Shown here in pieces: positions 31 to 30,819 of a stretch of DNA of 64,000 nucleotides (positions within the stretch are counted from its first letter, which is position 1; each line of letters begins with the position of its first letter). Under the pieces are notes generated by a model, which had not been told where the DNA came from, did not search any database, and worked only from the letters and a program-made list of their open reading frames with translations. Both the position numbers and the translations under genes were made by a program. Where the stretch lies: NCBI GenBank assembly GCA_041402125.1, contig JAWKSY010000011.1, positions 5,977-69,976 on the forward strand. Direction: 5' to 3'. Source of the stretch: Planctomycetota bacterium. Lineage in GTDB: Bacteria > Planctomycetota > GCA-002687715 > DRQF01.

Positions 31-795
31 CTATCCGATCTTCAGCCCGTCGAGGGCCGTGAGTGCCTCGTCGACGGGACGGCGACGTCCCACGTCGTCT
101 GCGCGCCAGATCCCGCGCACGCGCCCCTCGCCGTCCAGGATGACCTGGGTCGGGGCGTAGACCGCGTGCTCGACGGGGCTCAGCGGAGAGGGATCGATCA
201 GGCCGAGCGCCCGTCCCAGCGAGGCGTCGGCGTCGGAGACGACGTCGAGCCGCGGGAAGGCCAGGGCCGTGCGCCGCGCGTCCTCCGCGCCGTCGGTGGA
301 AACCACGACGACCCGGACCCCGCGGCTCTCGAAGTCGTCCGCCCGTTCCGCGAGCTCACCGAGCTCGGTGCGACAAAACGTTCACCACCAGCCGCGGTAG
401 AAGACGAGCAGTCGCGACTGCCCGTCGGCGACGGTGCTCGAGTCGAAGGACGCCCCGGAGGCGTCTCGCGCGGCGAAGGCGGGCGGCCGCTCCCCGATCC
501 TCATCGGCCCCTCGTAGGGTCGGAGCCGCAGGCCGAACGCGAAGACGAGCGTCAGGACCGCCCCGGCCAGGGCGAGCACCAAGGCCAGCCCCCGCACGAG
601 GTTCCGGCGACGCAGGAAGCCCATCAGCGCCAGCGTCGCGCCGGGCACCGCGAGGAGCGGCAGGTGCCGGGCCGACGCGAGGTGACCGGTGCCCGTCCAG
701 GTCAGGTAGCCCGCGAGAGGCAGCACGGCGAGGGTCAGTCCGACCGGAGTGAAGAGGCGCTGGTTCATGGAGGTCTCGACGAGGGGGCCCGTCAT
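31..795 (-). CDS. Membrane-anchored AhpC/TSA-type redoxin (peroxiredoxin-like). Candidate selenoprotein, with the in-frame TGA at 382-384 read as Sec.
   Basis: Track ORFs 382..795 and 31..306 are in the same phase and are separated only by TGA plus 25 sense codons. The joined product has about 3 TM helices followed by ...LLVFYRGWW-U-TFCRTELGELAERADDFESRGVRVVVVSTDG... This is the FYRG-W-C-x-x-C...S-x-D redoxin signature with U at the first Cys. A SECIS-like hairpin follows. Confidence 0.6.
349..372 (-). promoter_or_regulatory. SECIS-like hairpin downstream of the UGA at 382-384
   Basis: The minus-strand RNA reads CGC(ACC)GAGCUC-GGU-GAGCUC-GCG. It has a perfect 6-bp stem, a 3-bp lower stem across a 3-nt bulge, and a GGU apical loop. 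It starts 9 nt after the UGA. No covariance model was run. Confidence 0.4.
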
Positions 796-1712: not shown

Positions 1713-1994
1713 GAGTCCGCGAAGACATCCCCGCTGGCTTCGACCGGCTGCAACGGCGACGGCCTTCGTCGTGCCTCCTCGCCGTATCTTTCCATTGATA
1801 TGCCTCGTCGGCCCTCCTCGCCCGACGCCGTTTCGCGCGGTCTCGGGCCGACGCGGGGATGACTTCCCGGACTCTGGGGTCCGCGAAGACATCCCCGATT
1901 TGAAGCGACGCCCGCGAAGCGCGAGACTCGGAGCGGACGATCGCGACCTCGGGGGGCCACCCCGACGCGGTCGCCGGTCCCCGCGAGACCCGAG

Positions 1995-2855
1995 ATGACG
2001 CGCCGCCCCGACCTCCTGCGCCGGATCAACCTCGCCGTCTGGATCCTCGTCGCCGTCCTCGTGGTCGGCGTGGTGATCACGCTCTTCTACTACGAGAAGA
2101 TCGCCCTCCACTTCTTCGGACCGCCCGCGGTCGAGATGGAGGAGCGCTACGCGGGGAGCGGCGACGGCGCGACGACCTTCGATCACGGGGCCTGGACGGC
2201 CCTGCTCGCGGCCCACGTCGACGAGGAGGGACGCTGGGACTACCCCGGCCTCCGGGCCGACCGCCGCGCCCTCGCCGCCTACCTCGACGCGGTCGCGGCC
2301 GCCCCCTTCGCGGCGCTCTCGCGCGACGGGAAGCTGGCGCTCCTCCTGAACCTCCACAACGCGGCGACCGCCCGGCTCGTCATCGAGCACTCCCCCGAGA
2401 GCTCGATCCGCGAGATCCCGGAGGCCGATCGCTGGCAGGCGGCGCGCTGGCGCGTCGCCGGCGAGACCCTGAGCCTCGATCAGATCGAGAACGACTGGCT
2501 GCGCGCGCGCTTCGTCGAGCCGCGCATCCACTTCGCGCTGGTGACGGCCAGCCTCGGCGGTCCGCCGTCCCGCCGCGAGGCCTACGTCGCGGAGCGGCTC
2601 GAGGAGCAGCTCCAGGCCCAGGCTCTCCGGTTCCACTCCCTGCCCCGCGGCCTCGTCATCGACCCGGAGAAGCGACGGGTCTCGCTGAGCCGCATCTACC
2701 AGTGGTTCGACGGCGACTTCCGCCAGGTCGAGGGCGACCCCCGCCGCTACGCCGCGCGCTTCGACGCGACGCTCGCCGGCATCATGGACGGGAACGAGAC
2801 CTGGAGCTTCGGCTGGCTCGACTACGACTGGGACCTCGACGCCCGCGCGGACTGA
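1995..2855 (+). CDS. DUF547 domain protein with an N-terminal TM anchor
   Basis: Motifs LLNLHNAATARLVIEH, RARFVEPRIHFALVTASLGGPP and SRIYQWF are typical of DUF547. The ORF is clean and starts at an ATG. Confidence 0.7.
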   Translation: MTRRPDLLRRINLAVWILVAVLVVGVVITLFYYEKIALHFFGPPAVEMEERYAGSGDGATTFDHGAWTALLAAHVDEEGRWDYPGLRADRRALAAYLDAVAAAPFAALSRDGKLALLLNLHNAATARLVIEHSPESSIREIPEADRWQAARWRVAGETLSLDQIENDWLRARFVEPRIHFALVTASLGGPPSRREAYVAERLEEQLQAQALRFHSLPRGLVIDPEKRRVSLSRIYQWFDGDFRQVEGDPRRYAARFDATLAGIMDGNETWSFGWLDYDWDLDARAD

Positions 2856-2856
2856 C

Positions 2857-4762
2857 TCAGGGCGCGAGGCGACGCATGAGCCACTCCAGCGGCCCGACCC
2901 GGAACAGTCGACACCAGTAGGCCGCGCCGCTGATCGCCACCCACACGCAGGTGCCCACCGCGAAGGCGATGAAGCGCAGATCCTCGCCCGACCCCTTCCC
3001 GATCGCGCGCAGGAGCCAGATCCCCAGCAGGATGTGCGCGAGATAGAGCGTCAGCGCCGTCCGACCGGCCGCGGCGAGGGGCGCGATCGCGGGGGCGAGG
3101 ATCCTCGCGCGGGCCAGCAGCAGGCAACCGCCGAGGACGACGCCGGAGAGTCCGAGCGCGGCGAGCACGTAGAACGGACTGGGGTTCGGCCAGGAGGTCG
3201 CGTGGGCCTGGTCGAGCAGCCGGAGATCGCGACGGTCGAGCGCCCGCGCCGCCGCGAGGTCGACGACGGCCTCGTCCCGCCCGAGCAGGTCCTCGCGCCC
3301 CGCCTCGTCGCGGGTCGGGACCCGGCGCCGCAGGACGAGACGCTCCAGCGCGCCCGGCCAGTCCGGACTCGATCCGAAGAGGGAGGCGTCCTCCGCCCCG
3401 CCGAAGGGAGGACCGGCGCGATCACCCATCCAGGCCGCGAGACCGGAGGCGAGGGAGCGGAAGCGCTCCTCGGAGCCGGGAGCGAGCTCCGAGGCCGGGT
3501 CCTCGGCGACCGCGAGCACGATCGCGACGCCCTCGCCGTCCTCGCGCGGCACGACGCCGAGGTCCATCTCGGCCCAGGCGTGGCGCTCGCGGGTGGCCGC
3601 GAGGTAGCGGCGCAGTCGGCGCGCGTCGACGATCGCCGCCTCGTGTCGCTCGCGATCGACGCGGACGTCGATGTCGAGCCCGATCCGGTCCGAGGCGCGC
3701 CGCGGCCGGCCCTCGGCGTCCACGACCGGGCCCGCGAAGGTCCGGACCCCGGGCGCCAGATCCGTGCATGCACGGGGAAGCTCGCGGCGAGGCGCTCCGA
3801 CTCCGAGCGTTCGAGACCGGTCCGGGCGAGTCGCGCCGCGCCCTCCCCCGCCGCCGCGAGGACCGCCCCGACCAGGACGAGGAGGAGCGCCGTGCGCCGC
3901 CGCCCGAGATCGAGGCGCGGCAGCGCGAGCCCGACGAGGAAGAAGGCCGCCCAGGGCAGGAGCGGGTGCCAGCCGTTGAAGACGAGGTTGCGCCACTGCC
4001 CCCGCGGCTCCCAGAAGCGCGGGTACTCGTAGACGAGCATCGCCCAGTCCGCGCGGAAGTCCTCGAGGTACTGCCAGACCGCGGCGCCCGCCACCGCGGC
4101 GCCCGCGAGCCCGAGGAGCAGCCAGACGGGTCGACCGGCGAGCAACGCGCCGAGGACGAGCAGGACGCCGTAGTAGTGCAGGATGTCGGGGTTCCAGAGG
4201 GGGAACCACGCGTAGCCGAGCCCGAGCAGGAAGATCCCCCGGAAGACGAGCCCGCGTCGCGCGCCGGTCGGCGCGAGCGCGGCCCACCCCGGCAGGGCGA
4301 GGAGACCGACCCCGGCCGCGACGAGGACGGGAAGGTGACCGGCGTCGCGGATCGAGTCCCCGAAGGCGCGCCACCGGTCGAGCACCGACTCTCCCTCGTG
4401 CCCCTTTCCGGCCACGGTCTCGGACCAGGCGTGGAACGCCGCCGCCGCCCCGAAGCCGGCGGAGAGCAGCGCGAGGAGGGCGCCCCGCCCGGCGGCGCGG
4501 AGCCGGGAGGCGGCCGGCCGCCCCGCGCGGGCCGCGAGGAAGAGCGCCGAGCCGACGCCGGCCAGGAGAACGAAGAGCGCGGCCGCCCGTCCGGTCAGGG
4601 CGTCGAAGGCCGTCCGCAGCCAGCCCGGGTCGACCTGCGACAGGGTCGGATCGAGCACCACGCGGTAGTTGACGGCGACCATTCCGGCGAAGGCGATCGC
4701 CCGGGCCAGGTCGATGCCGACGAGCCGCGTCGTCCCCGCGACGGCCGGTTCCTCCGGCCGGC

Positions 4763-5733: not shown

Positions 5734-8571
5734 ATGCGCGCCAATTCGCCGGACGAGATTCCCTTTTTCGGGCGGGATCCCTCCTGGATCGCCTTCAACG
5801 AGCGCGTGGTCTCGCTCGCCGAGGACCCCGCCACGCCCCTGTTCGAACGGCTCCGCTTCCTCTCCATCAGCGGATCGAACCTCGACGAGTTCTTCATGAA
5901 GCGCGTCGCGCGCATGAAGCGACGCCTCGAGATGGGCGTCGAGTTCCTCTCGCACGACGGGATGACGGTCCGGGAGCAGAGCGCGGACGCGCGGCGGCGG
6001 GTCATGGCCCTCCAGGAGCGTCAGGCGCAGTGCTGGGAGGACCAGCTCATCCCCGCCCTCGCGGACCAGGGCATCGAGATCACCGCCTACCGCGACCTCT
6101 CGCGCTCGCGCCGCGCCGCGCTCGACTCCTGGTTCCAGGCGAACGTCTACCCCATCCTGACGCCGCTCGCCGTCGACCAGGGGCAGCGTTTCCCCTTCAT
6201 CTCGAACCTCTCCAAGAACATCGGCGTCCTCGTCTCCCAGCCCCGGGACCGGGTGCGGCTCTTCGCCCGCCTGAAGATCCCGCCGAGCCTGCCCTCCTTC
6301 GTCCCCGTGACCGAGCGCAAGCCTCGGGTGGCGGCCGGGCTCGGACGGCGCCGGCTCCGCTTCGTCCCGCTGCTCGACGTGATCGAGGCGAACCTCGGCC
6401 TCGTCTTCCCCGGGATGCGCGTCGCCGAGCTCTCCCGCTTCCGCATCACGCGGCGGACGGGCGTCGAGCTCGAGGAGGAGGAGGGATCGGGCGACATCCT
6501 CGAGAGCGTCGAGGCCTTCGTCCAGCGTCGTCGCTTCGCCGAGCCGGTCCGGCTCGAGGTCCGCCCCGGCGCCTCCGAGAAGATCGTCGAGCTCCTCCGC
6601 GACGAGCTCGAACTCGAGCCCGGCGACGTCTACGAACGCCCCGGAATCCTCGACTACTCGGACCTGAAGTCGCTGCTGAAGATCGAGGCCCCGGAGCTCG
6701 AGTATCCGGCCTGGCGCCCGGTCGTGCCGCCCCGCCTCGCGACGCGGGAGCGCGATCTCTTCGCGGTGATCCGCGAGCGCGACCTCTTCGTCCATCACCC
6801 CTACGAGTCCTTCCACCACAGCGTGGAGAACTTCATCGCCACCGCGGCGCGCGATCCGAACGTGCTCGCGATCAAGCAGACGGTCTACCGGACGACCGAG
6901 GACTCGCCCTTCATCCAGAGCCTCATCCACGCGGCGCAGGAGGGCAAGCAGGTCGCCTGCCTCGTCGAGCTGCGGGCGCGCTTCGACGAGGACCGGAACC
7001 TCCAGCTCGTCCGCCGCCTGGAGCGACACGGCGTGCACGTCACCTACGGCGTGATCGGGCTGAAGACGCACTGCAAGCTGGCGCTCGTCGTGCGCCGCGA
7101 GGGCGATCAGCTCCAGAGCTACGTCCACATCGGCACCGGCAACTACCACTCGGTGACGGCGAACCTCTACACGGACTGCGGACTGTTCACCTGCGACCCG
7201 GACATCACCGAGGACGCGACGCACGTCTTCAACTTCCTGACCGGACGCTCGCTCCATCACCACTACGAGCGCCTGCTCGTCGCGCCGGTGACGATGCGCG
7301 ACCGCTTCCTCGCGCTGATCGACCACGAGATCGCGGCGGTCCGCCGGGGCCGTCCCGCCCGCATCCTCGCGAAGATGAACCAGCTCGAGGACCGGAGCAT
7401 CATCACGAAGCTCTACGAGGCCTCGCAGGCCGGCGTCCCGATCACGCTCCTCATCCGCGGCTTCTGCTGCCTCCGGCCCGGCGTCCCGGGACTCTCCGAG
7501 AACATCCGCGTGATCTCGGTCCTCGGCCGCTTCCTCGAGCACTCCCGCATCTTCCACTTCGCGGCCGGCGAGGCCGACCCGGTCGACGGCGAGTGGTACA
7601 TCGGTTCGGCCGACTGGATGCGCCGCAACCTCGACGGCCGCGTCGAGACGATGACGCCGGTGAACGACCAGGAGGCGCGCCGCCGGCTGGTGCGCATCAT
7701 CGAGGCCTCGATGCGCGACCGGCGCCAGGCATGGGACCTCCTCGCCGACGGACGCTACGAGAGACGCCGTCCCGCCCCGAACGACGACCCGCACGAGCCG
7801 GAGATGCTCGGGACCTTCGAGACCCTCTGCCGCGACGCGCTCGCGGGGATCGCGCCGCGGGAGGCGAGCGACTTCTTCCTGCGTTCGGAGGCGCGCGGCC
7901 GCGACGGCCACGGCGTCCCGGACAGCCTCGAGACCGAGACGCGACGCTTCCTGCGGATGTTCGCCTCGCGCCCCTGGCTCACGGCCAAGGAGCTCTGCGC
8001 CGCGGCCGGACTTCGCGAGAAGCGCCTCGCCGCGGTGCGCAAGGAGCTCGTCCGCCTCAACCTCGCGGTCCCGTGCTCGGTGGGTCGGACCGCGCTCCTC
8101 GAACCGACCGGCGAGACCTTCGCGCGCGTCGAGGGGCAGCCCGAACGCATCGCGGGGCGCCTGCCCTTCGCGCGGCGCTGGCTCGCGGCGCGCATCCTCG
8201 CCGACCTCCCCAAGAGCGAGAGCGCCGAGGCGCAGCGCGAGGTCGAGGCGGGACTCACGACGGCCGACCTCATGGTCGGCAAGAAGGAGGCGAAGCGGCG
8301 CGCCTGGATGATCTTCGACGACCCCGAGACCGCGGCCGCGGAGCTGGCGCAGTTCGTGGTGTTGCCGGCCCGGCAACGCACCGTGGTGGCGCTCGACGCG
8401 GCGACGCACCGGGCGCTGCGCAAGGCGGTCGCGGCCCTTCCGGCCGAAACCCGCGCCCACATCACGGTGCGGACCTTCAGCCAGATGGTCGACGCGACGC
8501 GCTCGACGAAGGCCGCGCCGAAGAAGCAGCGCCGCGACAGCGACCGGAAGCGACGGGCCGGGGACTCCTGA
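5734..8571 (+). CDS. ppk: Polyphosphate kinase 1 with a C-terminal extension of about 250 aa
   Basis: FFGRDPSWIAFNERVVSLAEDPATPLFERLRFLSISGSNLDEFFMKRV and the following PPK1 domains, including two PLD-like HxK regions. An alternative GTG start lies at 5698. The extension begins after about ...LLADGRYERR. Confidence 0.9.
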   Translation: MRANSPDEIPFFGRDPSWIAFNERVVSLAEDPATPLFERLRFLSISGSNLDEFFMKRVARMKRRLEMGVEFLSHDGMTVREQSADARRRVMALQERQAQCWEDQLIPALADQGIEITAYRDLSRSRRAALDSWFQANVYPILTPLAVDQGQRFPFISNLSKNIGVLVSQPRDRVRLFARLKIPPSLPSFVPVTERKPRVAAGLGRRRLRFVPLLDVIEANLGLVFPGMRVAELSRFRITRRTGVELEEEEGSGDILESVEAFVQRRRFAEPVRLEVRPGASEKIVELLRDELELEPGDVYERPGILDYSDLKSLLKIEAPELEYPAWRPVVPPRLATRERDLFAVIRERDLFVHHPYESFHHSVENFIATAARDPNVLAIKQTVYRTTEDSPFIQSLIHAAQEGKQVACLVELRARFDEDRNLQLVRRLERHGVHVTYGVIGLKTHCKLALVVRREGDQLQSYVHIGTGNYHSVTANLYTDCGLFTCDPDITEDATHVFNFLTGRSLHHHYERLLVAPVTMRDRFLALIDHEIAAVRRGRPARILAKMNQLEDRSIITKLYEASQAGVPITLLIRGFCCLRPGVPGLSENIRVISVLGRFLEHSRIFHFAAGEADPVDGEWYIGSADWMRRNLDGRVETMTPVNDQEARRRLVRIIEASMRDRRQAWDLLADGRYERRRPAPNDDPHEPEMLGTFETLCRDALAGIAPREASDFFLRSEARGRDGHGVPDSLETETRRFLRMFASRPWLTAKELCAAAGLREKRLAAVRKELVRLNLAVPCSVGRTALLEPTGETFARVEGQPERIAGRLPFARRWLAARILADLPKSESAEAQREVEAGLTTADLMVGKKEAKRRAWMIFDDPETAAAELAQFVVLPARQRTVVALDAATHRALRKAVAALPAETRAHITVRTFSQMVDATRSTKAAPKKQRRDSDRKRRAGDS

Positions 8572-8589: not shown

Positions 8590-10122
8590 TCACTCCACGA
8601 CGACCTCGAGCCGGATCCCCGCCGCGTCGATCGCCTCCATCTCCTGCTCGAGATCGAGCCGCGTCAGGGGATGGGCGTCGAGCCAGGCCTCGCGGAAGAC
8701 GAGGACGAAGCCCTTCTTCGTCACCTCGACGCGCAGCGCCGAGAGATCGGCCGGGCGGCGGCTGCGATTGAGGACGATCGCGATGCGGAGGACCGCCGCC
8801 AGCCGCGGCGCCGCGGCCTTCCAGCGGGGCGCGAGGTCGCGGAAGGTGTCCGCCTTCACGTTCCGCCGCTGGTTGAGGAGGAGCGCCGCGAGGAGTTCCT
8901 GCTCGTCCCGGCTGAAGCCGGGCATGCGGGCATTGCCCACGATGTAGGCGCCGTGGCGGTGATAGCGGTCGTGGCTCAGGGCGAGGCCCACCTCGTGCAG
9001 CCGCGCGGCCCAGCGGAGCATCCGGCCGCAGGCGGGATCCTCGAGGTCCCAGCGGGCGGCCACGTGCTCGAGCAGCGCGGCCGCGGTCGCCTCGACGCGC
9101 GCCGCCTGGACGCCGTCGATCCCGAAGCGGGACTCGAAGTCGCGCACCGTGCGCTCGCGGATGTCGTGCTCGGCGATGCGGCCGATGAGGTCGTAGATCA
9201 CGCCCTCGCGGAGCGCGGTCGGCGAGACCTTCATCCGCTTGACCTTCAGGCTCTCGAAGACCGCGACGATGATCGCGAGCCCGCCGGCGAAGATCGCCGC
9301 GCGCTGGTCCTTCAGGCCCTTCAGCGCGATGTCGTCCACCGACTTCGCCTCGAGGAGCCGCGCGACGACCGCGTCCAGGGCGGCGCGATCGAAGCCGTCG
9401 TCCCAGGCGCCGTTCGCCCGCACGACGTCCTCGACCGAGCGGATCGTGCCCGAGGAGCCGATGGCCTCCGACCAGTCGCTGGATCGGATCGCGCGCGCCA
9501 CCTCGTGCAGCTCGCGCTCGGCCGCGAGGACCGCGCGATCGAAGCGCGCCCGATCCAGACGTCCGTCGGCGAAGAAGCGGCGCGACCAGCTGATGCAGCC
9601 CATCGGCACGCTGTGCGGGTCGATCGTCTCGAAACCCCGGCCGAGGATGCACTCCGTGCTCCCGCCGCCGATGTCGACGACGAGTCGTCCGCCCTCCCCG
9701 GGCGAGACGCCGTGGGCGACTCCGAGGTAGACGAGCCGCGCCTCCTCGTCGCCGGACACGATCTCGATCGGCAGCCCGAGTCGTCGCTCCGCCTCGGCCA
9801 CGAAGGAGCGATCGTCGCGGATGAGCCGGAGCGTGTTCGTCCCCACCGCCCGGGCGAGGAGGTCCTTGCGCGTCCCGAGTCGCTGCGCGAAGAGGTCGAG
9901 CGCGGCGAGAGCCCGCTCGCGGACGTCCCGATCGAGCCTGCGCTTGGCGTCGAGCCCGGCCGCGAGCTGGACCTGCTCGCGGATGCGGTCGACGACCTGG
10001 GGCACGCCGGCCCGCAGATGCGCGATCACCATGTGGAAGCTGTTCGAGCCGAGGTCGATCGCCGCCACGCGGGCCGGGGGCGCGGCGACGGCGGACTTCG
10101 GTTCGGAGGGGTCGTGCATCAT
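8590..10122 (-). CDS. ppx: Exopolyphosphatase (Ppx/GppA family)
   Basis: AAIDLGSNSFHMVIA, VDIGGGSTE and a C-terminal HD-like region (LHEVGLALSHDRYHRHGAYIV). Confidence 0.85.
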   Translation of the reverse strand: MMHDPSEPKSAVAAPPARVAAIDLGSNSFHMVIAHLRAGVPQVVDRIREQVQLAAGLDAKRRLDRDVRERALAALDLFAQRLGTRKDLLARAVGTNTLRLIRDDRSFVAEAERRLGLPIEIVSGDEEARLVYLGVAHGVSPGEGGRLVVDIGGGSTECILGRGFETIDPHSVPMGCISWSRRFFADGRLDRARFDRAVLAAERELHEVARAIRSSDWSEAIGSSGTIRSVEDVVRANGAWDDGFDRAALDAVVARLLEAKSVDDIALKGLKDQRAAIFAGGLAIIVAVFESLKVKRMKVSPTALREGVIYDLIGRIAEHDIRERTVRDFESRFGIDGVQAARVEATAAALLEHVAARWDLEDPACGRMLRWAARLHEVGLALSHDRYHRHGAYIVGNARMPGFSRDEQELLAALLLNQRRNVKADTFRDLAPRWKAAAPRLAAVLRIAIVLNRSRRPADLSALRVEVTKKGFVLVFREAWLDAHPLTRLDLEQEMEAIDAAGIRLEVVVE

Positions 10123-27369: not shown

Positions 27370-27783
27370 TCACTCGAAGACGTCGGCGAGCCCTTCCCCG
27401 TCGCGCCCGACGAACCAATCGCGCGTCGCCCGGCGGCTCCAGAAGATCAGCAGCGGCACCGCCGGCAGGGCGGTGACCAGGCCACCGCAGGTGAGACTGA
27501 GCGCGATCAGGACGATGCCGCCGATCCAACCGGCGCGACGGCGCGGCAGGACGAGACCGATCGCCCAGACCAGCGACAGTCCCAGGGAGGCGATCGAGAC
27601 GAAGACGGAGAGACCGTCGAGCTCGTCGACGTCCTCGTCGAGCCCCAGGAGGGAAGCGGCCAGCCAGACCCCGACGACGACGAACCCGACGACGTGGAGC
27701 AGGCAGAAGCCCGCGAACCACCAGACGACGGCGGGTCTCCTCCCCTGTCGCCTCGCGAGGATGAGGCCGCCCCGCTCCGTCAC
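27370..27783 (-). CDS. Small 4-TM membrane protein (downstream paralog)
   Basis: The GTG start overlaps the upstream paralog's stop (GTGA). The C-terminus ...LLIFWSRRATRDWFVGRDGEGLADVFE parallels the neighbour's ...LFIYWIRPECRDWFSGRSERQMIEVFE. Confidence 0.6.
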   Translation of the reverse strand: MTERGGLILARRQGRRPAVVWWFAGFCLLHVVGFVVVGVWLAASLLGLDEDVDELDGLSVFVSIASLGLSLVWAIGLVLPRRRAGWIGGIVLIALSLTCGGLVTALPAVPLLIFWSRRATRDWFVGRDGEGLADVFE

Positions 27784-28178
27784 TCGAAGACCTCGATCAT
27801 CTGTCGCTCGGAGCGACCGGAGAACCAATCCCGACACTCCGGCCGGATCCAGTAGATGAAGAGCGGGATCGAGAAGGGAAGGCAGAAGAAGCAGGAGCAG
27901 AGGGTCGAGATCGCGAACTGGATGATGCCGAAGGTCCAGGTTCCCCGAGAGCGACGCAGGAAGGGCCCGACCCCGAGGAAGACGGCGCTCGCGAATTGCA
28001 CCGAGGAACTGATGATGATCTCCACCGGTCGGGGGTCGTCGCTCGGCCGCGGTGCCATGAAGACGCCGACGAAATACAGAGCCAACACGCCGAGGGAGAG
28101 CGCGGCTCCGACGAAGCAGTACACGATCCACCAGGTGACCACGCCGGGACGGCCTTCGGTCGAGGTCCTGATGATCAT
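27780..28178 (-). CDS. Small 4-TM membrane protein (upstream paralog, visibly lower GC)
   Basis: ATG-initiated 132-aa ORF with four hydrophobic segments and a Cys-rich TM3 (STLCSCFFCLPF). It shares the C-terminal RDWF-x-GR...VFE motif with 27370..27783. Confidence 0.6.
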   Translation of the reverse strand: MIIRTSTEGRPGVVTWWIVYCFVGAALSLGVLALYFVGVFMAPRPSDDPRPVEIIISSSVQFASAVFLGVGPFLRRSRGTWTFGIIQFAISTLCSCFFCLPFSIPLFIYWIRPECRDWFSGRSERQMIEVFE

Positions 28179-28307
28179 CTCCGCCCTCCTCCCGCGCGGC
28201 CCATTCTCGGGCCGGCCCCCCGGGGGTCAAGCCGGCGGAATTCCGCCCCGCGGGAGGTTTCGCCCTCCCGGCGCGTCGTCCGGGCGAAACCGCGACCGGA
28301 GGACCCC

Positions 28308-29249
28308 ATGACCCGACCCGACCGATCGATGACCGCCCTGACCGCGGGGGGGATCGCGCTCCTGATCCTCGCCCTGGTGGGCGATCTCGCGGCCCAAGGG
28401 CCGCAGGAGAAGAAGCAGGCGAAGCCGCCGGCGAAGGAGGCCCCTTCCAAGGCGCCGAAGAAGCCCGTGCGTCCGACGCGCGCCTGGGGGCTCGACTGGT
28501 ACGCGACCGTCGATCCGGCCCTCATCGAGGCGCGCCGTCGCAGCGCCGCGAGCCCGAAGGACCCGAAGCTCGTCCTCTGGGTCCGGATCCTCGGCGAACT
28601 CGCGGGGAAGGCCTGAAGTGCCGGCCACTGCCTGAGAACCGTGACGTTCTCGAACGACGCCCTGGCGAAGCGACTGAAGCGCGAAACCGTCCTCGTCTGG
28701 GAGGACATCACCGGCGAGGAGGCGGCCGGCTCGTCCTTCGCGCATGGGCCGAAGGATCCCGCGAACCACTGCGTCACCGGCGCCGGCGACCACAACGTCC
28801 AGATCCTGCTCCTCGACGAGTGGGGTCGAATCCTCGACGCCGTCGCGGGCTTCCGTAGCGCGGAGGACCTGATCGAGGAGCTCGACCTCTCCCGGGCGCT
28901 GCGACGCGCGATCGAGGGGCAGAAGGCCGGGTCGGCGGAGGAGATCGTCCGCGTGCGCCACGAGAAGGAAGCGAAGGAGGACGCCGAGGACGATTCCGGC
29001 GGCGTCTTCCGCGAGCTGCGCCGCATGGGCAAGACGCGCGACCACCGCTTCTGCGCGCGGAATCCGCTGCTCGCGCACGGGAAGTTCCGCACCGAGGATC
29101 TCGTGGGCCGGGGCCGATCTTTCTTCGGATCCTCGACCGGCGGGGTGCCGAAGGAGAAGATCGGGAAGGATCAGGGCGGCGAGCTCGACGAGTCTCTCCC
29201 CGAGGAGATCCGCGAGATCCTGCGCGGCGAGAAGGAGAAGAAGAAGTGA
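28308..29249 (+). CDS. Signal-anchored thioredoxin-fold protein. Candidate selenoprotein, with the in-frame TGA at 28614-28616 read as Sec.
   Basis: ATG preceded by GGAGGA. Track ORFs 27996..28616 and 28641..29249 are in the same phase, with 8 sense codons between them. Read-through gives ...DWYATVDPALIEARRR...KLVLWVRILGELAGKA-U-SAGHC-LRTVTFSNDALAKRLKRETVLVWEDI...ILLLDEWGRIL. This looks like a Thioredoxin_7/DUF255-like layout, and the split falls exactly at the active-site position. Confidence 0.45.
28634..28651 (+). promoter_or_regulatory. SECIS-like hairpin downstream of the UGA at 28614-28616
   Basis: GAGAAC-CGUGAC-GUUCUC, a 6-bp perfect stem with a 6-nt loop. The stem starts 17 nt after the UGA. 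The alternative GTG start (28641) lies inside the loop. Confidence 0.35.
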
Positions 29250-29842
29250 GACCGCGGGTCGACGAGCGAGGACGCACCGGCGCGATGCCGCGCGAGGAGG
29301 CGCGACTGATCGAGCTCCTCCGCAGCGGGGATCTCGCCGCGCTCGACCACCTCGTCGCCCGCTACGCGGAGGGACTGGGGGCCTACCTGGGGCGGATCGT
29401 CCCCGACCCGAATCGCGTCGAGGACATCGTCCACGACACCTTCATCAAGGTCTTCGAGAACCCCCAGGGCCTCGCCGAGGTGGGCTCCCTGACGGCCTGG
29501 GTCTTCCGCGTCGCCCGCAACCAGGCGCTCGACCGCGTGCGCCGAACCGCCCGCCGCGAGCGGCTGCGCCGCCTCTGGGGCGGCAACCGGGCTCCGACGC
29601 CGGAACCGCACGAGGGTCTCCTCCGCCGCGAGGCGGAGGCGGCCTTCGACCGCGCCCTCGCCGAACTCCCCGAGGTCTTCCGCACCGCCTTCCTGCTGCG
29701 CGAGGTGGAGGATCTCAGCTACGAACAGATCGCGGCCATCCTCGGCTGCAACGAGAAGACCGTCTCCTCGCGCCTGAATCGCGCGCGCCGCCGACTCCGC
29801 GAACGCCTCGCGCCCTTCCTCGACGAGGAGGACGCACGATGA
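29246..29842 (+). CDS. ECF-type RNA polymerase sigma-70 factor
   Basis: Region 2 (VEDIVHDTFIKVF, WVFRVARNQALDRVR) and region 4 (FLLREVEDLSYEQIAAILGCNEKTVSSRLNRARRRLRE). The GTG at 29246 overlaps the upstream stop. An internal ATG at 29285 is an alternative start. Confidence 0.85.
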   Translation: MRPRVDERGRTGAMPREEARLIELLRSGDLAALDHLVARYAEGLGAYLGRIVPDPNRVEDIVHDTFIKVFENPQGLAEVGSLTAWVFRVARNQALDRVRRTARRERLRRLWGGNRAPTPEPHEGLLRREAEAAFDRALAELPEVFRTAFLLREVEDLSYEQIAAILGCNEKTVSSRLNRARRRLRERLAPFLDEEDAR

Positions 29843-30819
29843 GGACTCCCTTCTGCCGTCAGGTGCGCGAGCACGCCTCGGATCATCGGGACCGCAAGCT
29901 CGGACCGGACGCGGCCTCCCTGATCGACGAACACCTCCGCGTCTGCCCGGACTGCGCCCGCGTCTACGCTCGGGACCGCGCGCTCGCGGACCTCGCCCGC
30001 GCGCGTTTCGCCTCGGAGACCCGGACGGGAAGTGCCCCCTCGCGCCTCGCGGCGCGGATCAAGGGCACGCTGGTCGAGCGCGCCTTCGCTCAGGAGCGGC
30101 CGCGCCCCCTGGCGGAGCGCGCCGCGGCGACGGGACGCGCCTGGGCCCGCTCGCGGGCCGCGGCCGCCGCCGCGGCGGTGCTGCTCGTCGTGTGCGCCTA
30201 CGCGCTCGGGCGCCGGCACGGCGGCGCGTCGGCGGTGCGACCGCCGGAGGACGATCGCGCGCCGGCCGCCGGCCTCGTCGCTCGCGACGAGATCGGATCC
30301 CGGCCGACGCCGCGAGAGGTCGAGGTCGCACCGCCCGTCCGACCACACCCGGAGCCCGTCGCCCCGGAAGCGGCGCCGCCCGGAACCGGAACCGACGGGG
30401 CGATCGCGCGCGCGATCTCGGAGCCCCGGCCCGATGCGCCCGCTCCCGGAGCGGCGGGAGGAGAGGTGGTGCGTGACGCACGGGCCAGTGCGGCGCTCCT
30501 GCCGCCCGAGATCTTCCGACTCGTGGAGGAACTCGGTGCCCTCGACGCCCTCGAAACGGCCCTGCGCGAACTCGCGGAGCCCGCCGCGACGGAGGAACCG
30601 GCCGAGCCCGCCTTCGAGCTGGTGTCGGCGCGGACCGGGCGGGACTCGGCACCCTCGAGCCTCGCGGAAGCCCTCCGCTACGCGCTGCGCGGACCGACCG
30701 ACTTCCGCGTCGAGCTGCGGGAGACCCGCCGGACGCCGGATGGCCGACGCGTGATCATCTCGCGGAGCGCCGGCGCCGCGATCTCGGTGTCGATCGCCGC
30801 CTCCTTCGAGTCGCGCTGA
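29839..30819 (+). CDS. Anti-sigma factor with a ZAS-type zinc-finger motif
   Basis: The ATG overlaps the sigma gene stop (ATGA). Motif C6...H32-LRV-C-PD-C (C-x25-H-x3-C-x2-C). One TM segment (AAAAAAVLLVVCAYAL). Pro/Ala-rich C-terminal part. Confidence 0.7.
   Translation: MRTPFCRQVREHASDHRDRKLGPDAASLIDEHLRVCPDCARVYARDRALADLARARFASETRTGSAPSRLAARIKGTLVERAFAQERPRPLAERAAATGRAWARSRAAAAAAAVLLVVCAYALGRRHGGASAVRPPEDDRAPAAGLVARDEIGSRPTPREVEVAPPVRPHPEPVAPEAAPPGTGTDGAIARAISEPRPDAPAPGAAGGEVVRDARASAALLPPEIFRLVEELGALDALETALRELAEPAATEEPAEPAFELVSARTGRDSAPSSLAEALRYALRGPTDFRVELRETRRTPDGRRVIISRSAGAAISVSIAASFESR

What the first reader, a model, noticed from the sequence alone, without database searches (positions are those of the whole stretch)
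28308..29249. Second in-frame UGA splitting a thioredoxin-fold domain at its active-site position (U-x4-C)
ORFs ending at 28616 and starting at 28641 are in the same phase. Read-through gives ...KLVLWVRILGELAGKA-U-SAGHC-LRTVTFSNDALAKRLKRETVLVWEDI...ILLLDEWGRIL. By eye this follows the Thioredoxin_7/DUF255-like layout, in which a CxxC normally sits right after the first beta strand. Without read-through, the fold would be split between a 102-aa signal-anchored stub and a GTG-initiated ORF with no RBS. The hairpin GAGAAC-CGUGAC-GUUCUC starts 17 nt after the UGA. The U-to-C spacing (4 residues) is atypical, so this case is less secure than the first. Two such cases in 64 kb support each other.
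Basis: partly seen in the sequence, partly recalled or inferred. Interest (0 to 1): 0.65.

Follow-up and report, generated by a model that had tools for sequence, protein, structure and literature searches.

The report
New exported thioredoxin-fold selenoprotein family
The in-frame TGA at 28614-28616 is almost certainly a selenocysteine codon inside one continuous gene for a secreted thioredoxin-fold protein; the gene belongs to a large family, seen so far mainly in Planctomycetota, that matches no Pfam or NCBIfam model above threshold and that gene callers routinely cut in two.

Summary
ORF 28308-28613 and ORF 28617-29249 are in phase, separated only by TGA 28614-28616, and a hairpin starts 17 nt downstream.

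The same TGA sits in the same column in all 11 distinct related DNA sequences fetched (Planctomycetota MAGs, metagenomes, and one 38% GC lineage). Seventeen full-length homologues carry Cys in that column. All 98 other cluster representatives in the family alignment begin just after the column, which is what truncated gene calls would look like.

The hairpin keeps its register in every TGA form, with loop CGUG[AU]C and two base pairs showing compensatory changes. Its upper stem and loop are lost in three Cys-form genes.

An AlphaFold model of a Cys homologue (pLDDT 90.6) is a thioredoxin fold closest to DUF255 and DsbD-gamma. The Cys/Sec residue lies at the N-cap of helix 1.

The real motif is U-S-A-[GAS]-H, with a distal Cys in about 77% of Sec-type members.

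TGA is the ordinary stop in this window (31 of 32 ORFs). No Sec machinery lies in the 64 kb, so that test remains open.

Neither Pfam (above threshold) nor NCBIfam covers the family, and it does not appear in a 2026 selenoprotein catalogue. Verdict: a genuine selenoprotein gene, decoded by the standard mechanism, from a new family.

The parts
28298..28303 (+). Shine-Dalgarno GGAGGA, 4 nt before the ATG
   Evidence: Read directly from the sequence.
28308..28397 (+). Start codon and predicted N-terminal signal peptide or anchor (MTRPDRSMTALTAGGIALLILALVGDLAAQ)
   Evidence: Charged n-region, hydrophobic core and A-A-Q, judged by eye. Comparable N-termini occur in L001, L004, L005 and in the Cys form P0128. 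No signal-peptide predictor was available.
28398..28613 (+). N-terminal part of the mature protein, including strand beta-1 (LVLWVRIL) and the loop G-E-L-x-G-K-A before Sec
   Evidence: Conserved in all relatives. Corresponds to E56-61 of the P0128 model.
28614..28616 (+). UGA read as selenocysteine (residue 103 of the 313-aa protein)
   Evidence: TGA in the same column in 11 distinct DNAs. Cys there in 17 full-length homologues. An RNA-derived contig has the same TGA.
28617..28631 (+). S-A-G-H-C: active-site turn (conserved motif S-A-[GAS]-H-x), start of helix 1
   Evidence: S, A and H are invariant; the fifth residue varies. This stretch would be non-coding under a two-gene model.
28633..28652 (+). 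Bacterial SECIS-like hairpin: stem 28633/4-28639 with 28646-28651/2, loop CGUGAC 28640-28645
   Evidence: RNAalifold and pair counts: 95.7% of cells paired against 26-49% in slid controls; pair 28635/28650 is AU x8 and CG x2; pair 28638/28647 is AU x7 and GC x3. It contains the gene's only AGA codon; AGA is 0.9% of Arg codons in the window. The upper stem and loop are lost in Cys forms.
28617..29246 (+). Rest of the coding sequence: thioredoxin-fold strands beta-2 to beta-4 and helix 3, then a helical C-terminal domain with D-H-x-F and F-F-G motifs
   Evidence: Single uninterrupted tblastn HSPs across the TGA in all loci. AlphaFold model of the homologue. Conservation table.
28770..28772 (+). 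Cys155, the distal conserved cysteine and candidate resolving residue
   Evidence: Cys in 76 of 99 Sec-type rows and 17 of 17 Cys-type rows of the family alignment.
28794..28802 (+). N163-V-Q165, an invariant N-x-Q immediately before strand beta-3, where thioredoxins have the cis-Pro
   Evidence: N in 99/99 and Q in 98/99 Sec-type rows; both in 17/17 Cys-type rows. Position taken from the model's secondary structure.
29247..29249 (+). True stop codon (also TGA)
   Evidence: TGA ends 31 of 32 confident ORFs in the window.
29246..30819 (+). ECF sigma factor (ATG 29285, or GTG 29246 overlapping the stop) and zf-HC2 anti-sigma factor (29839-30819), apparently in the same operon
   Evidence: Pfam families on the syntenic L001 genes. 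A sigma homologue lies directly downstream in L001/L002, L003 and L004. A metatranscriptome contig at 28730-29466 spans the junction.

Best explanation
Bases 28308-29249 are one gene for a 313-residue exported protein. UGA 28614-28616 is decoded as selenocysteine by the standard bacterial route. The hairpin 28633-28652, whose loop begins 23 nt after the UGA, would act as the SECIS element that recruits SelB-GTP-Sec-tRNA(Sec) to the ribosome, in competition with release factor 2.

The product has a signal peptide, a thioredoxin-fold domain of the DUF255/DsbD-gamma (Thioredoxin_7) type, and a helical C-terminal domain. Sec103 sits where the first Cys of CxxC normally sits, at the N-cap of helix 1. 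The second Cys of that motif is replaced by Gly/Ala/Ser.

The enzyme therefore most likely works as a single-selenol oxidoreductase in the cell envelope. Sec would attack an oxidised substrate (a peroxide, sulfenate or disulfide). The resulting selenenic acid or selenenyl-sulfide would be resolved by the distal Cys155, present in about 77% of members, or by an external thiol. The invariant H107, S143, H146, N163 and Q165 would line the site.

The gene is probably co-transcribed with an ECF sigma / anti-sigma pair, which suggests a role in an envelope redox-stress response.

Shown here: the conserved TGA, the Cys homologues, the covarying hairpin, the fold, and transcription. Inferred: Sec insertion itself, export, the chemistry, and the link to the sigma factor.
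For: 1. Conserved TGA. It sits in the same codon column in the window and in L001/2, L003, L004, L005/10, L006, L007, L008, L009, L011 and L012/14-16. These are 11 distinct sequences sharing 31-57% protein identity, with GC from 38% to 73%. tblastn HSPs run straight across it.
2. Cys homologues. Seventeen full-length proteins have Cys in that column, in the context ...GPM-C-SASH....
3. Truncated gene calls. A whole-library HMMER search found 174 cluster representatives. In the 118-row family alignment, all 98 Sec-type rows other than the window start at or after residue +6 (M-R-T-V...), which is the signature of ORF calls cut at a TGA.
4. Conserved 'spacer'. The residues between the TGA and the supposed downstream start (S-A-[GA]-H) are conserved as protein.
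5. Hairpin. It keeps the same register in all TGA forms, with 5-7 bp and loop CGUG[AU]C. Compensatory changes are AU to CG (2 sequences) and AU to GC (3 sequences), plus AU to GU (3 sequences). 95.7% of cells pair, against 26-49% in slid controls.
6. Residue covariation. Residues +8 and +11 covary as pair 28638/28647 requires: T..F 66, A..L 9, A..F 2, T..L 0. The 11 apparent T..L matches are Cys-form signal peptides, not true cases.
7. Rare codon. A conserved AGA lies in the stem; AGA is 0.9% of Arg codons locally.
8. Loss in Cys forms. The three Cys-form DNAs have lost the upper stem and the loop sequence.
9. Fold. The AlphaFold2 model of Cys form P0128, built with the family alignment, has pLDDT 90.6 and pTM 0.88. 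It shows beta1 56-61, Cys71, then helix 72-81. Foldseek top hits are 3IRA (a DUF255 domain) and DsbD-gamma, with probabilities 0.97-1.0. Pfam DUF255 hits are sub-threshold for three Cys forms. A weak profile hit to thioredoxin 2LST aligns the column with the first Cys of CPYC.
10. UGA is a normal stop here: 31 of 32 ORFs end in it, including this gene.
11. A second candidate selenoprotein gene lies in the same window: AhpC/TSA with U-x-x-C at 382-384 on the minus strand, with its own hairpin.
12. Independent RNA-derived contigs reproduce the TGA and span both halves.
13. Planctomycetes with complete Sec machinery are on record (PMC4807772).
Against: - No selA, selB, selD or tRNA-Sec was found in the 64 kb or in any fetched locus. 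The rest of the genome could not be searched.
- The hairpin is short (6-7 bp) and no more stable than shuffled sequence.
- The hairpin overlaps conserved codons. One relative with Tyr (TAC) in the column still has it (L017). Part of its conservation could therefore be protein-level.
- The fold was predicted for a Cys homologue sharing about 25-27% identity, not for the window protein itself, because the joined sequence could not be submitted.
- The joined protein has no above-threshold hit in Pfam, NCBIfam or PDB sequences.
- There is no protein-level evidence for Se.
Confidence: 0.87

Rival explanations
1. The TGA is a true stop. The locus encodes two separate products, a 102-aa signal-anchored peptide and a 202-210-aa protein re-initiated at GTG 28641 (or at ATG at +6 in relatives), possibly by translational coupling.
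For: Every gene caller makes this call. Many relatives have an ATG 5 codons after the TGA. No Sec machinery was seen in the window.
Against: The 5-8 codons between the TGA and the supposed start are conserved as protein (S-A-x-H). There has been no frame shift or indel between the halves across 11 lineages. Seventeen homologues are single ORFs with Cys at the column. In the model, strand beta-1 (upstream half) and strands beta-2 to beta-4 (downstream half) form one thioredoxin domain that neither half could form alone. No SD precedes GTG 28641.
Confidence: 0.04
2. The UGA is read through, but not as Sec. For example, near-cognate tRNA-Trp or tRNA-Cys could decode it, stimulated by the hairpin, in an organism without the Sec trait.
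For: The Sec machinery is unverified. The hairpin is small. One relative has Tyr at the site.
Against: Cys, the isostere of Sec, is the residue in the 17 full-length forms without a TGA. The residue lies at the catalytic N-cap of helix 1 in a thioredoxin fold, where Trp would be non-functional. The hairpin position and the G-U in a small loop fit bacterial SECIS features (PMC1088965). A second UGA in the same window falls on the U-x-x-C position of an AhpC/TSA domain, which is a known selenoprotein family. The 'W' in database proteins P0104/P0176 is simply TGA translated with another genetic code.
Confidence: 0.06
3. It is a pseudogene or an assembly/sequencing error in this contig.
For: A single in-frame stop is what a recent nonsense mutation looks like.
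Against: The identical TGA occurs in 10 other independent assemblies from different samples and lineages, and in RNA-derived contigs of another study. Both halves are under purifying selection. GC3 in the downstream half is 0.91, typical of coding sequence in this window.
Confidence: 0.01
4. The organism uses a genetic code in which UGA is a sense codon everywhere (code 4 or 25).
For: Some pipelines translated low-GC relatives that way, giving W.
Against: 31 of 32 confident ORFs in the window, including this gene, end in TGA. The window is 72.7% GC.
Confidence: 0.01

Closest known systems
Thioredoxin_7 / DsbD-gamma / DUF255 (Thioredox_DsbH, PF03190) thioredoxin-like domains
   Same: Fold and topology are the same. 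The best Foldseek hits are 3IRA, 1VRS, 1UC7, 2FWF and 2KUC, with probabilities 0.91-1.0. The redox residue sits at the N-cap of helix 1 after strand beta-1. Like DsbD-gamma, the protein is extracytoplasmic.
   Different: There is no CxxC: the fourth position is G/A/S. The redox residue is Sec. N-x-Q stands where the cis-Pro is expected. There is an extra helical domain of about 130 residues. Pfam scores are below threshold (13-21 bits against 27) and Foldseek E-values are only about 1e-2.
[quoted passage not shown]
   Same: Sec replaces a redox Cys at the start of helix 1. Cys-containing homologues exist. A stem-loop lies immediately 3' of the UGA inside the coding region.
   Different: None of the models for those families matches at E <= 1 in NCBIfam, or above threshold in Pfam. 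There is no partner Cys within the motif. Sec forms greatly outnumber Cys forms, whereas most catalogued families are mainly Cys (for example GOS_A with 2 Sec and 155 Cys).
Bacterial SECIS elements (E. coli fdhF type; bSECISearch consensus)
   Same: A hairpin inside the ORF directly after the UGA, with a small apical loop containing G (here G-U) (PMC1088965). By my own recollection, the loop starting 23 nt after the UGA falls within the usual 16-37 nt range.
   Different: The stem is very short (6-7 bp) and has no bulged U. The loop is a 6-nt CGUG[AU]C that is nearly invariant across the family. No Rfam model applies. Binding to SelB is untested.
Glutathione peroxidase (single-Sec thioredoxin-fold peroxidase)
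   Same: A lone Sec at the N-cap of helix 1 of a thioredoxin fold. Invariant Asn and Gln lie in a neighbouring loop, reminiscent of the GPx Sec/Gln/Trp/Asn tetrad. This resemblance is from my own knowledge and is a lead, not a test.
   Different: There is no detectable sequence similarity. A GPx structure appears only at Foldseek rank 10 with probability 0.25. Spatial proximity of the residues could not be measured, because no coordinates were available.
'Hypothetical' selenoprotein candidate of planctomycete P1 (IMG 2643311185/6) with a Cys homologue in Rhodopirellula sallentina (PMC4807772, Table S9)
   Same: Planctomycete origin, annotated as two adjacent genes, a Cys homologue in a Rhodopirellula, and a SECIS predicted.

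Membership tests
Bacterial selenoprotein gene (Sec-UGA decoded via an intragenic SECIS) | In-frame UGA conserved at the same position in orthologues, with coding conservation on both sides | tested here: met
   11 distinct DNAs carry it, and single HSPs run across it.
Bacterial selenoprotein gene (Sec-UGA decoded via an intragenic SECIS) | Cys-containing homologues with Cys aligned to the UGA | tested here: met
   17 full-length Cys forms. This exceeds the '>= 2 Cys homologues' criterion of PMC1088965.
Bacterial selenoprotein gene (Sec-UGA decoded via an intragenic SECIS) | Stem-loop immediately downstream of the UGA with a small apical loop containing G | tested here: met
   Hairpin 28633-28652 with loop CGUGAC. 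It shows covariation at two pairs and is absent in register from the Cys forms. Its stability alone is not significant.
Bacterial selenoprotein gene (Sec-UGA decoded via an intragenic SECIS) | selA, selB, selC (tRNA-Sec) and selD present in the same genome | not testable with these tools
   None lies in the window or in any locus.
Bacterial selenoprotein gene (Sec-UGA decoded via an intragenic SECIS) | Selenium demonstrated in the polypeptide | not testable with these tools
   This needs 75Se labelling or mass spectrometry.
Thioredoxin-like fold, Thioredoxin_7 / DUF255 group | Pfam model hit above the gathering score | tested here: not met
   No hit for the joined window protein. PF03190 scores 13.3-20.7 bits against a cutoff of 27 for the Cys forms.
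Thioredoxin-like fold, Thioredoxin_7 / DUF255 group | beta-alpha-beta ... beta-beta-alpha topology with the redox residue at the N-terminus of helix 1 | tested here: met
   AlphaFold model of homologue P0128, pLDDT 90.6. Foldseek hits to 3IRA and DsbD-gamma. This was tested on a homologue, not on the window protein.
Thioredoxin-like fold, Thioredoxin_7 / DUF255 group | CxxC (or UxxC / CxxU) dithiol motif | tested here: not met
Thioredoxin-like fold, Thioredoxin_7 / DUF255 group | cis-Pro before strand beta-3 | tested here: inconclusive
   An invariant N-x-Q occupies that place according to the secondary-structure register. No coordinates were available to check the geometry.
Any catalogued selenoprotein family with an NCBIfam or Pfam model | Match to the family model | tested here: not met
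   NCBIfam release 20 gives no family hit at E <= 1 for the window protein, three Cys forms or two of three further relatives tested; the only hit is a chance RecG match (10.5 bits against a cutoff of 718) for P0002. Neither PF03190 nor PF13899 appears in the text of the 2026 review that holds its family table.

The most novel reading that the evidence does not exclude
This gene could be one member of a large, previously uncatalogued and predominantly Sec-containing protein family. The family has at least 174 clusters at 50% identity; it is seen mostly in Planctomycetota, and also in a 38% GC lineage. Its members would be exported single-selenol thioredoxin-fold enzymes with a Sec/His/Ser/His/Asn/Gln site and no CxxC partner. 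They would act as peroxidase- or sulfenate-reductase-like enzymes in an envelope redox-stress circuit governed by an ECF sigma factor, or associated with HtrA. On this reading, the peptide R-[TA]-V-[TS]-[FL]-[SA] next to the active site is dictated by the SECIS hairpin rather than by the protein.
Probability: 0.3. Interest if true: 0.6.

Novelty: new member of a known kind. Interest (0 to 1): 0.45.

Why it matters
If the reading is right, public databases hold on the order of a hundred or more cluster representatives of this protein only as a headless 'hypothetical protein' plus an unannotated stub. The active-site half and the signal peptide are missing from those entries.

Recognising the family would do several things.
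- It would correct those annotations.
- It would add a widespread, mostly-Sec family to the bacterial selenoproteome.
- It would extend selenium use in Planctomycetota, a phylum hardly mentioned in current selenoprotein catalogues.
- It would provide a clean natural example of an RNA element constraining the amino-acid sequence beside an active site: Thr/Phe against Ala/Leu, and the Arg AGA/CGA codon choice against Ser/Ala.

The decoding mechanism itself is textbook, so the advance is a new family and a possible new active-site type, not a new principle.

Tried and rejected
- **Family searches on the joined protein.** Pfam and NCBIfam gave nothing on the 313-aa protein. The PDB sequence profile gave nothing with 3 sequences and only one weak thioredoxin hit with 118.
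- **Submitting the joined sequence.** I used the post-UGA part for the search and a Cys homologue for the fold instead.
- **Single-sequence AlphaFold.** The run on P0121 was useless, with pLDDT 36.6.
- **Rfam.** The scan of the window found nothing. This says little: my recollection, not checked here, is that Rfam holds no general bacterial SECIS model.
- **Sec machinery.** ARAGORN found no tRNA in the window and only tRNA-Val and tRNA-Tyr in L004. Pfam scans of 30 window ORFs showed no SelA, SelB or SelD. The window's own contig is not retrievable.
- **U-x4-C as the motif.** Rejected, because the +5 Cys is not conserved.
- **Two-gene, pseudogene, alternative-code and non-Sec read-through models.** All considered and judged unlikely (see the rival explanations).
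- **ECF sigma adjacency as a universal feature.** Rejected. It holds for the window, L001/2, L003 and L004, and loosely for L013. It does not hold for L005, L009 or L014-17.
- **Synonymous-site conservation.** It peaks over the hairpin (0.82), but the baseline is high in these GC3-rich genes, so I do not lean on it.
- **Literature.** Searches for a Planctomycetota selenoprotein of this kind found only an unnamed 'hypothetical' candidate.
Full report
**1. The observation**

Bases 28308-29249 translate in one frame to 313 sense codons. There is a single internal stop, TGA 28614-28616, and a terminal TGA at 29247-29249. The ORF list shows the upstream ORF ending at 28616 and a GTG ORF starting at 28641 in the same phase.

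ATG 28308 is preceded by GGAGGA. Nothing comparable precedes GTG 28641. The hairpin GAGAAC-CGUGAC-GUUCUC lies at 28634-28651, 17 nt after the UGA. Folded alone it is unremarkable: -15.3 kcal/mol for the 57-mer, z = -1.07. The description is therefore accurate, but the single sequence does not prove anything.

**2. Relatives keep the TGA**

A word-indexed protein search with the joined sequence found only the window's own downstream ORF and two 'hypothetical proteins' that cover just the post-TGA part. Their contigs show the same split.
- In L001 (a 174-kb JGI contig, syntenic with the window over more than 20 kb) and in L003, an in-frame TGA sits in the same codon.
- The 38 nt after the TGA are identical in L001 and differ at 3 positions in L003, while the flanks diverge.
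- Scans of the genome and metagenome collections added L004 and L005 (two Planctomycetota MAGs) and L006-L011. Every one has TGA in the column.
- A 38% GC lineage (L012, L014-L016) has it too. The 'W' in its database proteins is this TGA translated with another genetic code.

That makes 11 distinct sequences at 31-57% protein identity. tblastn aligns each one straight through the TGA in a single HSP.

The five residues after the TGA (S-A-[GA]-H-x) are conserved as protein, although a two-gene model would make them non-coding.

**3. Cys homologues and family size**

An exhaustive HMMER search with the post-TGA part found 174 cluster representatives at E <= 1e-3. Almost all start at query residue 6-10, that is, at the first Met or Val after the TGA column.

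A few are full length. P0121, P0128 and P0136 read ...GPM-C-SA[SA]H..., and a profile search with them returned 14 more such Cys forms.

In the 118-row alignment, 17 rows have Cys at the column. All 98 other Sec-type rows have no residue in the column or in the five columns after it.

This is the classical selenoprotein signature. It exceeds the criteria used in the field: at least two sequences with a conserved TGA, at least two Cys homologues, and a SECIS-like structure (PMC1088965).

**4. The hairpin**

On ten aligned TGA forms, RNAalifold predicts the same 7-pair helix. Pair counts on the alignment give the following.
- 95.7% of cells are paired, against 26-49% when the 3' arm is slid by 1-3 columns.
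- The second pair is A-U in 8 sequences and C-G in 2.
- The fifth pair is A-U in 7 and G-C in 3.
- The fourth pair is A-U in 7 and G-U in 3.

The loop is CGUG[AU]C throughout.

These changes are visible at the protein level.
- The Arg codon choice AGA versus CGA goes with Ser versus Ala at +12.
- Thr/Phe versus Ala/Leu occurs at +8/+11.
- Among truncated representatives, +8/+11 is T..F 66 times, A..L 9 times, A..F 2 times (a G-U pair) and never T..L. The 11 apparent T..L matches are signal peptides of Cys forms.

The stem also holds the gene's only AGA codon, which makes up 0.9% of Arg codons in the window's genes.

In three Cys-form DNAs (L013, L019, L020) the two pairs next to the loop are broken and the loop sequence differs.

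One caveat applies. L017, where the column is TAC (Tyr) and the N-terminal half looks degenerate, still has the hairpin. Either the loss there is recent, or some of the conservation is protein-driven.

The loop starts 23 nt after the UGA and contains G-U. This is consistent with the general features of bacterial SECIS elements (the 16-37 nt range is from my own recollection of the bSECISearch model).

**5. The fold**

The joined sequence could not be submitted for prediction. A single-sequence run on P0121 failed.

With the 118-row alignment, Cys form P0128 gave a confident model: pLDDT 90.6, pTM 0.88. Its elements are as follows.
- signal helix
- beta1, residues 56-61
- Cys71, immediately followed by helix 72-81
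- beta2, residues 96-101
- beta3, residues 132-137
- beta4, residues 142-148
- helix 153-172
- a helical C-terminal domain

Foldseek against the PDB returns thioredoxin-like domains only. The leaders are 3IRA (a DUF255 domain), DsbD-gamma (1VRS, 1UC7, 2FWF) and 2KUC. Probabilities are 0.91-1.0, but E-values are about 1e-2 and target-normalised TM-scores are 0.5-0.66.

Pfam gives sub-threshold DUF255 hits for three Cys forms. The family profile weakly matches thioredoxin 2LST (E = 0.31), with the Sec/Cys column on the first Cys of CPYC and a G/A/S on the second.

The +5 Cys of 'U-x4-C' occurs only in the window and L001.

Conservation across the family is as follows.
- Invariant or nearly so: H107, G141-x-S143-x-x-H146, N163-x-Q165 (immediately before beta3, where the cis-Pro is expected), G181 and E191.
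- Distal Cys155: present in 76 of 99 Sec-type rows and in 17 of 17 Cys-type rows.

**6. Alternatives**

TGA is the normal stop in this window: 31 of 32 confident ORFs end in it, including this gene, at 72.7% GC. This excludes a reassigned code.

An assembly error or a pseudogene is excluded by the independent assemblies. It is also excluded by metatranscriptome contigs from a wastewater study. One contig covers 28222-28711 without a difference. Another, at 28730-29466, joins the gene to the sigma-factor gene.

Non-Sec read-through cannot be formally excluded without the machinery. It does not explain Cys in the TGA-less homologues, nor a catalytic position that could not tolerate Trp.

A second UGA in the window (382-384, minus strand) falls on the U-x-x-C position of an AhpC/TSA domain (E = 5e-18) and is followed by its own hairpin. 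That family is a catalogued selenoprotein family (PF00578, UxxC).

**7. What could not be shown**

No tRNA-Sec, SelA, SelB or SelD lies in the window or in any locus. Sixty-four kilobases of a multi-megabase genome say little either way. The rest of the genome was out of reach. Planctomycetes with complete Sec machinery are documented (PMC4807772).

**8. Context and function (inference)**

An ECF sigma factor and a zf-HC2 anti-sigma factor follow the gene directly in the window. The same holds in L001/2 and L004. In L003 a sigma homologue follows before the contig ends.

The Cys form in an 8-Mb genome follows a Sigma70_r2 gene and a 516-aa protein. The low-GC members are followed by an HtrA-like protease. 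Other members lack such neighbours.

Together with the N-terminal signal sequence, this points to an envelope redox or stress role. I propose a single-selenol oxidoreductase, resolved by Cys155 or by an external thiol. The Asn/Gln pair resembles GPx, but that resemblance is a lead, not a result.

**9. Novelty**

- NCBIfam (June 2026) gives no family hit for the window protein, three Cys forms or two of three further relatives tested; the only hit is a chance RecG match for P0002.
- Pfam gives only sub-threshold DUF255 hits.
- Database names are 'hypothetical protein' or none.
- The text of the 2026 review that holds the table of prokaryotic selenoprotein families contains neither PF03190 nor PF13899 nor the word Planctomycetes.
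- The deep-Sep and BSepDB papers do not mention the phylum either.
- A 2016 study lists an unnamed 'hypothetical' candidate in a planctomycete, with a Cys homologue in Rhodopirellula. It may be the same family, but I could not check.

The decoding mechanism is standard. What is new is the family and its motif.

Noticed in passing
The joined 254-aa protein hits AhpC-TSA (E = 5e-18) and Redoxin. A hairpin CGAGCUC-GGU-GAGCUCG starts 14 nt after the UGA. It is probably a Prx-like U-x-x-C selenoprotein with N-terminal membrane segments.
   Followed up: partly
window 29246-30819 (+); L001 10811-12198; L004 about 1900-3509; L003 1035-1223: An ECF sigma factor and a zf-HC2 anti-sigma factor lie immediately downstream. 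The possible GTG start of the sigma gene overlaps the selenoprotein's stop (GTGA). A metatranscriptome contig spans the junction. The Cys-form gene in L013 is instead preceded by a Sigma70_r2 gene and a 516-aa protein.
   Followed up: partly
window 28252-28269 (+); L001 about 9658-9676: A GC-rich inverted repeat, GGGAGG-N6-CCUCCC, lies in the intergenic region upstream of the gene. It is conserved in L001 (GGGAGG-N7-CCTCCC) and is followed by a conserved GCGTC-TCCGGGCG. It could be a promoter/operator or a 5' leader element.
   Followed up: no
window 27370-28230, minus strand; L001 8748-9562: Two tandem small (about 130-140 aa) membrane-protein paralogues lie divergently upstream. Both end in ...DWF-GR......VFE. 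They have no Pfam hit and are conserved in the syntenic L001.
   Followed up: no
L017 6001-6711 (column at 6043-6045); also L018: This relative has TAC (Tyr) in the Sec column. The hairpin is still intact, but the upstream region lacks a recognisable signal peptide and strand beta-1. It may be a decaying copy or a form with a different N-terminus.
   Followed up: partly
L012 268-270; L014/L015/L016 5974-5976: These family members come from a 38% GC organism. Some pipelines translated the TGA as Trp (332-aa proteins P0104 and P0176), while others truncated the gene to 237 aa. The gene is followed by an HtrA-like Trypsin+PDZ protease. The hairpin keeps 5 bp and the same loop despite the very different base composition.
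   Followed up: partly
L019 about 571-600: The Cys-form gene of P0121 folds into a strong local hairpin (-16 kcal/mol over 30 nt) in a different register from the SECIS-like hairpin of the TGA forms. This is unexplained.
   Followed up: no
window 28617-28619 and 28635-28637: Two rare codons sit next to the UGA. AGT (Ser +1) is 3% of Ser codons, and AGA (Arg +7) is 0.9% of Arg codons. AGT is shared by five of the eleven distinct TGA forms and AGA by seven. This is consistent with selection at the RNA level.
   Followed up: yes
window 27800-30800: Near-identical sequence is present in wastewater metatranscriptomes and metagenomes, and more weakly in biofloc metagenomes, of 2024. The organism is therefore probably a planctomycete from a wastewater or activated-sludge type environment.
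   Followed up: partly
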